Shown in pieces: positions 45,867-47,028 of a DNA stretch of 64,000 nucleotides. Each line of letters starts with the position of its first letter. The stretch's first letter is position 1. The DNA lies in the NCBI RefSeq assembly GCF_057098645.1, contig NZ_CM169472.1. One strand, given 5' to 3'. The position numbers and the translations under genes were made by a program. A model generated the notes under the pieces. The model ran no database searches. It was not told where the DNA came from and was given only the letters and a program-made list of their open reading frames with translations.

Positions 45867-45984
45867 CGTTCACCTCATTCGCTATATATCGTCATATATA
45901 GCGATATTTTAGGCAAAGAACGACCTTTGCGCACGCTATTTTTTCATGCTTGTTTAAGACGTAATCCCGTAAGAGATAAACCTA

Positions 45985-46872
45985 TCAGGAGAGATATTTA
46001 TCGAACCATTTCAGTGTCCTTTGCCAGGCAAGATCGGCGGCAGATTTGTCATAACGGGGCGTGGAATCATTATGGAATCCGTGATTAACCCCCGGATAGA
46101 TATACGCCTCATAAACCTTATTATTGGCTTTCAACGCCGCCTCGTAAGCAGGCCAGCCCTCGTTGATTCGGGTGTCCAGTTCCGCGAAGTGGAGTAGTAA
46201 AGGCGCTTCAATCTTCGCCACATCGGCAGTGGGTGCCTGACGACCATAAAACGGCACCGCGCAGGCCAGTTCCGGATACGCGACAGCCGCCGCGTTCGAT
46301 ACGCCACCGCCATAGCAAAATCCGGTAATACCCACTTTGTCTGTCGCTTGCGGATAGCGTTGCATAAACTCAATTGCGGCAAAGAAATCATTCATCAGTT
46401 TGGTTGGATCAACCTGCTGTTGCAGCTCACGACCTTTATCATCATTACCCGGATAACCGCCAACGGAACTTAAGCCGTCAGGTGCCAGGGCGATATACCC
46501 CGCCTTCGCCACTCGCCGTGCCACATCTTCGATATACGGATTCAGTCCACGATTCTCATGCACCACCACCACGGCTGGCGTTTTGCCGCTCATCCTTGCG
46601 GGTTTCACCAGATAACCCCGTACCTCGCCGTGACCATTTGGCGAAGGATACGTGATGTACTCAGCAACAATCTCCGGGTCGGTAAACTCTACCTGAGTCG
46701 CCAGCGCATAATTTGGCTTGAGCAAATCAAACAACGCTAATGCCGTCATCCCGCCTACCGCATACTTCGCCGCAAGGTTGAGGAACTCACGTTTCGAGAT
46801 TTTCCCGTGAGCGTAATAGTCGTAGTAATCCAGCAACTCTTGTGGGAAATCTTTGGCGGTTAAACGCGGCAT
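45985..46872 (-). CDS. yghX: dienelactone hydrolase-family protein, apparently intact here
   Basis: 295 aa from MPRLTAKDF... with GAGGAG RBS; alpha/beta hydrolase nucleophile motif GFCYGG. Confidence 0.8.
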   Translation of the reverse strand: MPRLTAKDFPQELLDYYDYYAHGKISKREFLNLAAKYAVGGMTALALFDLLKPNYALATQVEFTDPEIVAEYITYPSPNGHGEVRGYLVKPARMSGKTPAVVVVHENRGLNPYIEDVARRVAKAGYIALAPDGLSSVGGYPGNDDKGRELQQQVDPTKLMNDFFAAIEFMQRYPQATDKVGITGFCYGGGVSNAAAVAYPELACAVPFYGRQAPTADVAKIEAPLLLHFAELDTRINEGWPAYEAALKANNKVYEAYIYPGVNHGFHNDSTPRYDKSAADLAWQRTLKWFDKYLS

Positions 46873-47028
46873 CGTTGCACTCCTCAGTTGGTGTTTTTTT
46901 AAGCAAAGCATAAGCACGTGTTTTTGCCCAGTTTTTCGTCACTCTGTGAGCCAGACTACGGGATACGCGCTGGCGAATCGCTAAACTAGAAACATTGTTT
47001 CGAAATTGAACGGTGGAAAGGAGAGGTC

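What the first reader, a model, noticed from the sequence alone, without database searches (positions are those of the whole stretch)
45985..46872. yghX appears intact
A 295-aa dienelactone-hydrolase-family ORF with a good RBS and an intact nucleophile motif. As far as I recall this gene is annotated as a frameshifted pseudogene in K-12, so this strain may retain the functional ancestral allele.
Basis: partly seen in the sequence, partly recalled or inferred. Interest (0 to 1): 0.25.

Follow-up and report, generated by a model that had tools for sequence, protein, structure and literature searches.

The report
Intact yghX hydrolase gene
This E. coli strain carries the uninterrupted, ancestral form of yghX, a cysteine esterase-type enzyme gene that is broken by two small deletions in laboratory strain K-12; this is the common state in E. 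coli and is already annotated in public genomes, so it is ordinary.

Summary
Window 45985..46872 (minus strand) is an 888-nt ORF of 295 codons plus TGA, with GAGGAG 7 nt upstream of the ATG. It scores as a YghX family hydrolase (585.7 bits, cut-off 460) and Pfam DLH (4e-48). Its catalytic residues Cys186, Asp233 and His264 align with the C123, D171 and H202 triad of dienelactone hydrolase.

The interpretation also holds. K-12 MG1655 yghX is annotated as a frameshifted pseudogene. It lacks TA in codon 37 (window 46763-46764) and one C in codon 157 (window 46403), and its first stop falls at codon 48.

Syntenic full-length orthologues in Citrobacter and Enterobacter, and a full-length one in Pseudescherichia (86-91% identity, dN/dS about 0.02-0.03), show that the intact form is ancestral. 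It is not rare: at least 3490 of 5426 complete E. coli genomes are undeleted at site 1 and at least 1505 carry the 2-bp deletion. A crystal structure of the O157:H7 protein exists (4ZV9).

Two by-products:
- The validated K-12 small protein YqhI is exactly the truncated N-terminus of YghX.
- The conserved 58-residue N-terminus looks like a Tat-type export leader. It is RR in most relatives but KR here, and AlphaFold2 models it as folded. Its role is unresolved.

The parts
45985..46872 (-). yghX coding sequence, 295 codons plus TGA. It is identical to the E. coli O145 RM9872 yghX CDS (product WP_001400743.1).
46880..46885 (-). Shine-Dalgarno GAGGAG, 7 nt upstream of the ATG.
   Evidence: The same sequence is present in K-12, where this start is translated to give YqhI.
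46873..47028 (-). gpr-yghX divergent intergenic region, which presumably holds the yghX promoter. It differs from K-12 at one base (46920).
   Evidence: No sigma-70 consensus match was found on the minus strand.
46699..46872 (-). Codons 1-58: conserved N-terminal leader. It consists of the Pfam YqhI-like segment (residues 1-36), K27-R28 where relatives have RR, a 12-residue uncharged stretch (residues 37-48), and A56-L57-A58.
   Evidence: AF2 models it as three main helices.
46763..46764 (-). TA of codon 37 (TAT). These two bases are deleted in K-12, HS and at least 1505 complete E. coli genomes.
46403..46403 (-). C of codon 157 (ACC). This base is deleted in K-12 and 1199 complete E. coli genomes.
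45988..46698 (-). Codons 59-295: alpha/beta-hydrolase (DLH) catalytic domain. It is 97% identical to PDB 4ZV9 from E. coli O157:H7 Sakai.
46315..46317 (-). Cys186 codon, the nucleophile (equivalent to ClcD C123).
46174..46176 (-). Asp233 codon, the triad acid (equivalent to ClcD D171).
46081..46083 (-). His264 codon, the triad base (equivalent to ClcD H202).

Best explanation
This is the intact, ancestral allele of yghX. It encodes a 295-aa precursor of a dienelactone-hydrolase-family alpha/beta hydrolase that uses a Cys186-His264-Asp233 triad. Glu106 and Arg148 correspond to ClcD E36 and R81. ClcD R206 is replaced by Asn268, so the substrate is probably an ester, lactone or thioester other than dienelactone.

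K-12 and its relatives inactivated the gene in two steps. First a 2-bp deletion in codon 37 (the state seen alone in strain HS), then a 1-bp deletion in codon 157. What remains translated in K-12 is a 47-aa stub, known as the small protein YqhI.

The first 58 residues are most likely a Tat-type export leader that is cleaved after Ala58, giving a periplasmic enzyme.

Shown: ORF integrity, the positions of the K-12 lesions, allele frequencies, family membership, fold, triad conservation, purifying selection, and the identity of YqhI with the truncated N-terminus. Inferred: that the gene is expressed in this strain, catalytic activity, substrate class, export and cleavage.
For: - ORF, RBS and family.
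- K-12 pseudogene flags.
- Lesion mapping.
- Allele counts: 2-bp deletion allele in at least 1505 genomes, undeleted site 1 in at least 3490, 1-bp deletion allele in 1199, undeleted site 2 in 4221, out of 5426.
- Order of events: HS has only the 2-bp deletion and otherwise matches K-12.
- Orthologues: full-length at 85-91% identity in other genera; next to gpr in C. koseri and E. mori.
- Selection: dN 0.07-0.09 with dS saturated, dN/dS about 0.02-0.03 where computable.
- Fold and triad: 4ZV9 is 97% identical, rmsd 1.1 A to the model; triad mapping through the ClcD variant 4u2c; Cys186 present in 51 of 58 rows, Asp233 in 49, His264 in 42.
- Expression signals: the upstream 156 bp match K-12 apart from one base, and the K-12 product from this start was detected by chromosomal tagging (PMC6001520) and reported as induced at low Mg2+ (PMC11429745).
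- Leader: 41 aligned cluster representatives have RR at positions 27-28, and A-x-A is conserved at 56-58. Of 45 representatives carrying the motif, 39 have RR and 28 pass a simplified Tat rule. TIGR01409 scores 20.5 bits (cut-off 16.7) on one relative. The 4ZV9 chain starts at about residue 59/60.
Against: - No activity, expression or localisation data exist for this strain or, in the searched literature, for any family member.
- The window protein has KR, not RR, and only 12 uncharged residues in the h-region. It does not hit TIGR01409 or the Pfam TAT_signal model.
- AF2 models residues 1-58 at pLDDT 89-94. The full-length pTM of 0.92 exceeds the roughly 0.80 attainable from the core alone.
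- The isolated N-terminus still folds, with pLDDT 87.9 and pTM 0.70 in the best of five models.
- The leader is at least as constrained as the catalytic domain (dN 0.04-0.06 against 0.08-0.10), which is unusual for a plain signal peptide.
- ClcD R206 is not conserved (Asn268), so the EC 3.1.1.45 label used by some sources is unsupported.
Confidence: 0.85

Rival explanations
1. The gene is intact, but the N-terminal 58 residues are not a cleaved export signal. They form a small three-helix domain that stays attached and packs on the catalytic domain, for example as a lid, regulator or oligomerisation element. The enzyme would then be cytoplasmic, or possibly membrane-associated.
For: AF2 gives pLDDT 89-94 for residues 1-60 and pTM 0.92 for the full length, against a TMq of 0.79 for the core alone. 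The isolated segment folds into the same helices with pLDDT 87.9 and pTM 0.70. The leader has lower dN than the catalytic domain. H22 and R28 are invariant, and Y20 and F30 nearly invariant, in the N-terminal alignment. The window protein has KR, a 12-residue uncharged stretch and no Tat-model hit.
Against: RR-x-F-L, an uncharged stretch and A-x-A occur in register across the family. More distant members have classic Tat leaders with variable Ala/Pro-rich linkers, and one (P0250) has a lipobox-like IAAC at the cleavage position. The catalytic domain crystallised without the N-terminus (4ZV9). The other four AF2 models of the isolated segment score only 75-83. No known fold matches the segment. 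Model coordinates and PAE could not be inspected.
Confidence: 0.35
2. The ORF is open but the gene is already functionally dispensable or silent in this lineage. It would be a not-yet-decayed relic rather than a working enzyme.
For: Loss has spread to at least 28% of complete E. coli genomes with no obvious cost. No function or phenotype is known. No consensus sigma-70 promoter was found upstream.
Against: There is strong purifying selection between genera. The triad and the HENRG motif are conserved. The same start, RBS and upstream region drive detectable translation in K-12. The CDS is identical to that of O145 RM9872.
Confidence: 0.07
3. YghX is not a hydrolase but an acyltransferase or polymerase. 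It was once proposed, on the basis of its G-x-C-x-G box, as a candidate synthase of short-chain conjugated poly-3-hydroxybutyrate.
For: A proposal attributed to Rychlewski et al. and cited in PMC3709699 lists ysgA, ycjY and yghX as potential cPHB polymerases. PHA synthases also use Cys-Asp-His on an alpha/beta fold (general knowledge).
Against: The closest solved relatives are all dienelactone-hydrolase-type hydrolases. The only PHA-related hit is a depolymerase model at 24.6 bits against a cut-off of 150. yghX is a pseudogene in K-12, so it cannot account for any cPHB made by K-12.
Confidence: 0.04
4. The intact allele here is not ancestral. It would have been restored secondarily, by reversion or by recombination from another lineage into a pseudogene background.
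For: Recombination does occur at this locus: the EcN_Sk allele carries a dense SNP tract in codons 118-149.
Against: The window differs from the K-12 haplotype at 9 further sites spread along the gene and is identical to O145 RM9872. Undeleted alleles are the majority, and outgroups share the undeleted state.
Confidence: 0.02

Closest known systems
YghX family hydrolase (NCBIfam NF041440). RefSeq product WP_001400743.1 of E. coli O145 RM9872; crystal structure 4ZV9 of the E. coli O157:H7 Sakai protein.
   Same: The CDS is identical to the O145 RM9872 gene. The catalytic domain is 97% identical to 4ZV9. It lies in the same gpr-yghX-yghW-hybO neighbourhood.
   Different: Nothing of substance; this is that gene.
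K-12 yghX pseudogene (b4658; formerly split ORFs; Swiss-Prot 'Putative hydrolase fragment YghX') together with small protein YqhI (b4755).
   Same: Same locus, start codon, RBS and upstream region. About 98.7% DNA identity over the 1061-bp query.
   Different: K-12 lacks TA in codon 37 and a C in codon 157. It therefore makes only a 47-aa product whose first 36 residues are native YghX. The reference annotation starts the pseudogene at an out-of-frame internal ATG.
Dienelactone hydrolase ClcD of Pseudomonas (carboxymethylenebutenolidase, EC 3.1.1.45; PDB 1DIN and variants).
   Same: Same alpha/beta-hydrolase fold (TMt 0.83). Cys-His-Asp triad, and equivalents of E36 and R81.
   Different: Only about 24% identity. 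ClcD R206 aligns with Asn268. ClcD has no N-terminal extension. E. coli has no known chlorocatechol pathway (general knowledge), so the substrate is probably different.
Twin-arginine (Tat) signal peptides, e.g. those of HybO and TorA.
   Same: The layout is an n-region, an (R/K)R-x-F-L motif, a moderately hydrophobic stretch, a basic residue in the c-region (K52) and A-x-A. Relatives carry RR, and one passes TIGR01409.
   Different: Here the motif is KR. The uncharged stretch is 12 residues long. The n-region is 26 residues and strongly conserved. AF2 predicts a folded unit. Export is untested.

Membership tests
YghX family hydrolase (NCBIfam NF041440) | Whole-protein score at or above the curated cut-off of 460 bits, with end-to-end profile coverage. 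| tested here: met
   585.7 bits; residues 3-294 match profile positions 1-292 of 292.
YghX family hydrolase (NCBIfam NF041440) | Orthologous chromosomal position between gpr and yghW/hybO. | tested here: met
   Window gene order matches K-12 and O145 and C. koseri.
Dienelactone hydrolase family (Pfam PF01738, alpha/beta hydrolase) | Pfam DLH domain above the gathering score. | tested here: met
   164.3 bits against a cut-off of 21, residues 85-294.
Dienelactone hydrolase family (Pfam PF01738, alpha/beta hydrolase) | Cys-His-Asp catalytic triad in register with ClcD C123, H202 and D171. | tested here: met
   Cys186, His264 and Asp233 by alignment to 4u2c; conserved in relatives.
Dienelactone hydrolase family (Pfam PF01738, alpha/beta hydrolase) | DLH-type alpha/beta fold. 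| tested here: met
   The model matches 4ZV9 at rmsd 1.1 A and 1DIN at TMt 0.83.
Carboxymethylenebutenolidase, EC 3.1.1.45 (ClcD-type enzyme) | Both substrate-carboxylate-binding arginines (ClcD R81 and R206; their roles are recalled from the ClcD literature). | tested here: not met
   Arg148 aligns with R81, but Asn268 stands in place of R206. Asn is the majority residue at that column in the family (38 of 58).
Carboxymethylenebutenolidase, EC 3.1.1.45 (ClcD-type enzyme) | Hydrolysis of dienelactone to maleylacetate. | not testable with these tools
   An enzyme assay is needed.
Tat (twin-arginine) signal peptide | Consecutive arginines in an S/T-R-R-x-F-L-K motif. | tested here: not met
   The window has S-K-R-E-F-L-N. 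RR is present in 39 of 45 motif-bearing representatives, while all 120 close enterobacterial orthologues have KREFL.
Tat (twin-arginine) signal peptide | An uncharged h-region of at least 13 residues after the motif, followed by an A-x-A cleavage site. | tested here: inconclusive
   The uncharged stretch is 12 residues (Y37-F48). A56-L57-A58 is present and conserved.
Tat (twin-arginine) signal peptide | A match to curated Tat-signal profiles (TIGR01409, PF10518). | tested here: not met
   No hit for the window N-terminus at E up to 10. Relative P0128 scores 20.5 bits (cut-off 16.7) and P0122 scores 15.9.
Tat (twin-arginine) signal peptide | Tat-dependent export and leader cleavage in vivo. | not testable with these tools
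   No localisation data were found in the literature.
K-12-type yghX pseudogene allele | A 2-bp deletion in codon 37 and a 1-bp deletion in codon 157. | tested here: not met
   Both sites are undeleted in the window.

The most novel reading that the evidence does not exclude
The Pfam 'YqhI-like' family and the K-12 'small protein' YqhI are not an independent small-protein family. They are the conserved n-region of a long Tat-type leader on a widespread family of Cys-His-Asp hydrolases. This leader is unusually constrained and is predicted to be folded. It may therefore do more than targeting, for example holding the thiol enzyme inactive or protected until export. In enterobacteria the motif has drifted to KR. 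K-12's YqhI would then be an expressed pseudogene stub, and the uncomplemented low-Mg2+ phenotype of the yqhI deletion would reflect something else at the locus.
Probability: 0.4. Interest if true: 0.35.

Novelty: already known. Interest (0 to 1): 0.15.

Why it matters
For the finding as stated, it matters little. The intact allele is the majority state in E. coli. It is annotated by RefSeq, has a dedicated NCBIfam model, and the O157:H7 protein has a crystal structure.

There are three practical points:
- K-12 is unrepresentative at this locus. Work on YghX function must use an intact-allele strain such as O157, O145 or this one.
- yghX is widely used as a 'neutral pseudogene' integration site in K-12/W3110 engineering. 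It is a live gene in most other E. coli, and even in K-12 the site overlaps the expressed yqhI ORF.
- YqhI is currently treated as a stand-alone, stress-induced small protein. It is the truncated N-terminus of YghX, which changes how its conservation and deletion phenotype should be read.

The substrate and cellular location of this conserved enterobacterial enzyme remain unknown.

Tried and rejected
- Genomic context of distant homologues. Neighbours differ every time (GFA, HNH, old-yellow-enzyme, methyltransferase, EamA). There is no conserved operon partner and no functional clue.
- Promoter and terminator scan. There is no sigma-70 consensus match on the minus strand upstream of yghX, and hit counts equal those of the shuffles.
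- Foldseek of the isolated N-terminal model against the PDB. Nothing scored below E = 4.5.
- AFDB fold search to test whether homologue models place the N-terminus consistently. The library was unavailable, and model coordinates and PAE are not exposed.
- Literature searches for Tat or periplasmic evidence on dienelactone-hydrolase-family proteins. Nothing relevant was found.
- The idea that K-12's net 3-bp loss is a compensated frameshift giving a functional protein. Rejected: the shifted segment contains stops from codon 48 onwards.
- The 310-aa GTG-initiated version of the ORF. Rejected in favour of the ATG, which has the strong RBS, matches the orthologue N-termini and has experimental support from YqhI.
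- A profile search to see whether the YqhI-like leader occurs on other catalytic domains. Not run, because only the top 120 hits are listed and these would all be DLH proteins.

Full report
**Observation**

The stretch 45985..46872 holds an open reading frame on the minus strand. It runs from ATG at 46872-46870 to TGA at 45987-45985, which is 888 nt or 295 codons plus the stop. GAGGAG lies at 46885-46880, seven bases upstream of the ATG.

The mechanical ORF list extends the frame to a GTG at 46917. Three things favour the ATG instead:
- RefSeq uses it for the identical gene in E. coli O145 RM9872.
- It matches the N-termini of orthologues.
- It is the start of the experimentally detected K-12 product YqhI.

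The protein matches Pfam DLH over residues 85-294 (E = 4e-48) and a second Pfam family, YqhI-like, over residues 1-36. It scores 585.7 bits against NCBIfam NF041440 'YghX family hydrolase', whose cut-off is 460. The neighbours are hybA, hybO, yghW, gpr, yqhA and yghA, which is the K-12 order.

**Comparison with K-12**

PGAP flags K-12 MG1655 yghX as 'frameshifted' at 885 bp. The reference record NC_000913.3 lists it as pseudogene b4658. Alignment shows two deletions in K-12:

| Lesion | Codon | Window coordinate |
|---|---|---|
| TA deleted | 37 | 46763-46764 |
| One C deleted | 157 | 46403 |

There are also nine substitutions, seven of them at third codon positions. The net loss is 3 bp, so the original frame resumes after codon 157. 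The shifted segment has stop codons from codon 48 onward, so no full-length protein can be made.

**Frequency of each state**

The whole region is present in 5425 of 5426 complete E. coli genomes. I used 49-52-nt queries that span each lesion. They were designed so that the two alleles share no 28-mer, which megablast needs as a seed.

| Site | Deleted allele | Undeleted allele |
|---|---|---|
| Codon 37 (2 bp) | at least 1505 genomes | at least 3490 genomes |
| Codon 157 (1 bp) | 1199 genomes | 4221 genomes |

About 430 genomes are unclassified at site 1, presumably because of nearby SNPs.

Strain HS has only the 2-bp deletion and otherwise matches the K-12 haplotype. K-12, KY1497 and EcN_Sk have both deletions. 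In the evenly spaced sample, match lengths were 1061, 1059 or 1058 bp and never 1060. This fits a sequence in which the 2-bp deletion came first and the 1-bp deletion followed in a subclade.

The intact gene is therefore the majority state, at roughly two thirds to three quarters of complete genomes. This strain is not unusual. Its CDS is identical to that of O145 RM9872.

**Polarity and selection**

Full-length orthologues of 294-299 aa at 85-91% identity occur in Citrobacter, Pseudescherichia, Enterobacter, Kosakonia and Leclercia. In C. koseri and E. mori the gene sits next to gpr, and in C. koseri yghW and a hydrogenase small-subunit gene follow.

Between the window and three of these genera, dN is 0.07-0.09. 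Synonymous sites are saturated, and dN/dS is about 0.02-0.03 where it can be computed. The intact state is ancestral and has been kept by purifying selection.

**What the protein is**

PDB 4ZV9, an 'uncharacterized protein from E. coli O157:H7 str. Sakai', is 97% identical over residues 59-294. It superposes on my AF2 model at 1.1 A. The next closest structures are dienelactone hydrolases, with 1DIN at TMt 0.83.

Through the alignment with the ClcD variant 4u2c, the catalytic residues map as follows:

| YghX | ClcD |
|---|---|
| Cys186 | 123 (Ser in this variant, Cys in wild type) |
| Asp233 | D171 |
| His264 | H202 |
| Glu106 | E36 |
| Arg148 | R81 |
| Asn268 | R206 |

Across 57 cluster representatives plus the query, Cys186 is kept in 51, Asp233 in 49 and His264 in 42. 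The H-E-N-R motif at 105-108 is kept in 48-55.

From what is known of ClcD (recalled, not tested here), E36 and the two arginines take part in substrate-assisted activation of the thiol and in binding the substrate carboxylates. Keeping E106 and R148 while replacing R206 argues for the same chemistry on a different substrate. I commit to a thiol esterase or lactonase, and I do not file it under EC 3.1.1.45.

An older suggestion that YghX might be a cPHB polymerase (PMC3709699) has no support in the sequence comparisons. It also cannot apply to K-12, where the gene is dead.

**Expression**

The 156-bp gpr-yghX intergenic region is identical to K-12 except for one base at 46920. The RBS and first 36 codons encode the same residues.

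In K-12 this start yields a 47-aa protein, MPRL...LAAKCGRRDDGISVV. Its synthesis was confirmed by chromosomal epitope tagging, and it was named YqhI (PMC6001520). It is reported as induced at low Mg2+ independently of PhoQP (PMC11429745). That sequence is exactly the frame-0 translation of the K-12 pseudogene. The intact gene here is therefore very probably transcribed and translated, but this is an inference.

**By-product 1: the status of YqhI**

YqhI consists of 36 native YghX residues plus 11 out-of-frame residues. The reference annotation obscures this. It starts pseudogene b4658 at an ATG in the +1 frame at CDS position 50 and lists yqhI as a separate overlapping CDS.

The 2025 preprint on stress-induced small proteins never mentions yghX or a pseudogene. 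It reports a yqhI deletion phenotype that the small protein does not complement.

In alleles with only the 2-bp deletion, such as HS, that internal ATG opens a 278-codon frame that rejoins the native frame at codon 38. Its Shine-Dalgarno sequence is weak, and I did not pursue it.

**By-product 2: the N-terminus**

*Evidence for a Tat-type leader.*
- In an alignment of N-terminally complete representatives from 50%-identity clusters, positions 27-28 (K-R here) are R-R in 41 sequences and K-R in 3, the query included. F30 and L31 are conserved, and A-x-A is conserved at 56-58.
- By a simplified Tat rule, 39 of 45 motif-bearing representatives have RR, and 28 also have at least 13 uncharged residues following.
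- TIGR01409 scores 20.5 bits (cut-off 16.7) on one relative and 15.9 on another.
- More distant members have textbook leaders with variable Ala/Pro-rich linkers. One has a lipobox-like IAAC at the cleavage position.
- The 4ZV9 chain begins right after the A-x-A site.

*Evidence against, for this protein.*
- All 120 close enterobacterial orthologues have KREFL.
- The uncharged stretch is 12 residues long.
- No Tat profile hits the window sequence.
- The leader is at least as constrained as the catalytic domain, with dN of 0.04-0.06 against 0.08-0.10.
- AF2 gives residues 1-60 a pLDDT of 89-94. The whole-chain pTM is 0.92, above the roughly 0.80 that the 237-residue core alone could give (TMq to 4ZV9 is 0.79).
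- Folded on its own, the segment keeps the same three helices. Its pLDDT is 87.9 and pTM 0.70 in the best model, and the other four models score 75-83.

I could not inspect coordinates or PAE. The AFDB library was unavailable, and the PDB has no match to the segment.

My reading is that this is a Tat-type leader with an unusually conserved and possibly structured n-region. I put about 55-60% on export and cleavage, and about 35% on a retained helical domain. The two views are not fully exclusive, because Tat substrates fold before export.

**Novelty and score**

The finding as written is correct but already known. RefSeq annotates the gene, NCBIfam has a dedicated model, the O157:H7 protein has a solved structure, and the K-12 pseudogene is so well recognised that it is a routine integration site in metabolic engineering.

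Overall interest is 0.15. The most novel reading still open is the YqhI/leader reinterpretation, at a probability of about 0.4 and an interest of about 0.35 if true.

Noticed in passing
window 46732-46872 (codons 1-47); K-12 locus L003 1198-1341: The experimentally validated K-12 small protein YqhI (b4755, 47 aa) is the truncated product of the yghX pseudogene: 36 native residues plus 11 out-of-frame residues. The reference annotation starts pseudogene b4658 at an out-of-frame ATG, which hides this. The literature I read on YqhI does not mention it.
   Followed up: yes
window 46699-46872 (codons 1-58): The N-terminus has the layout of a Tat-type leader. It is RR in most distant relatives, KR in all 120 close enterobacterial orthologues, and has A-x-A at residues 56-58. 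It is also as conserved as the catalytic domain, and AlphaFold2 models it as a confident three-helix unit. Its role is unresolved.
   Followed up: partly
L004 (E. coli HS) 289-1174: Alleles with only the 2-bp deletion keep a 278-codon ORF. It starts at an internal +1-frame ATG (CDS position 50) and rejoins the native frame at codon 38, so it includes the whole catalytic domain. The out-of-frame start happens to read ...STLRRS just before the hydrophobic stretch. The Shine-Dalgarno sequence is weak, and whether this ORF is translated is unknown.
   Followed up: partly
window 45879-45904: There is a perfect 11-bp inverted repeat with a 4-bp spacer (TCGCTATATAT CGTC ATATATAGCGA) immediately upstream of the yghW RBS and ATG (45866). 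K-12 differs by one base in the spacer. It could be an operator or an RNA hairpin in the yghX-yghW spacer.
   Followed up: no
L005 (E. coli EcN_Sk) 256-1140: This K-12-type double-deletion pseudogene carries a dense tract of 17 substitutions in codons 118-149. The tract looks like a short recombination import into an already dead gene.
   Followed up: no
L012 4105-5745; L014 4003-5550: In Citrobacter koseri a methyl-accepting chemotaxis protein gene sits between yghX and yghW. Enterobacter mori has one directly downstream of yghX. It is absent from the E. coli window.
   Followed up: no
window 45985-46872, compared with K-12/W3110: Metabolic-engineering papers routinely integrate cassettes into 'pseudogene yghX' of K-12/W3110 as a neutral site. 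In most E. coli strains this is a live gene, and in K-12 the site overlaps the expressed yqhI ORF.
   Followed up: partly
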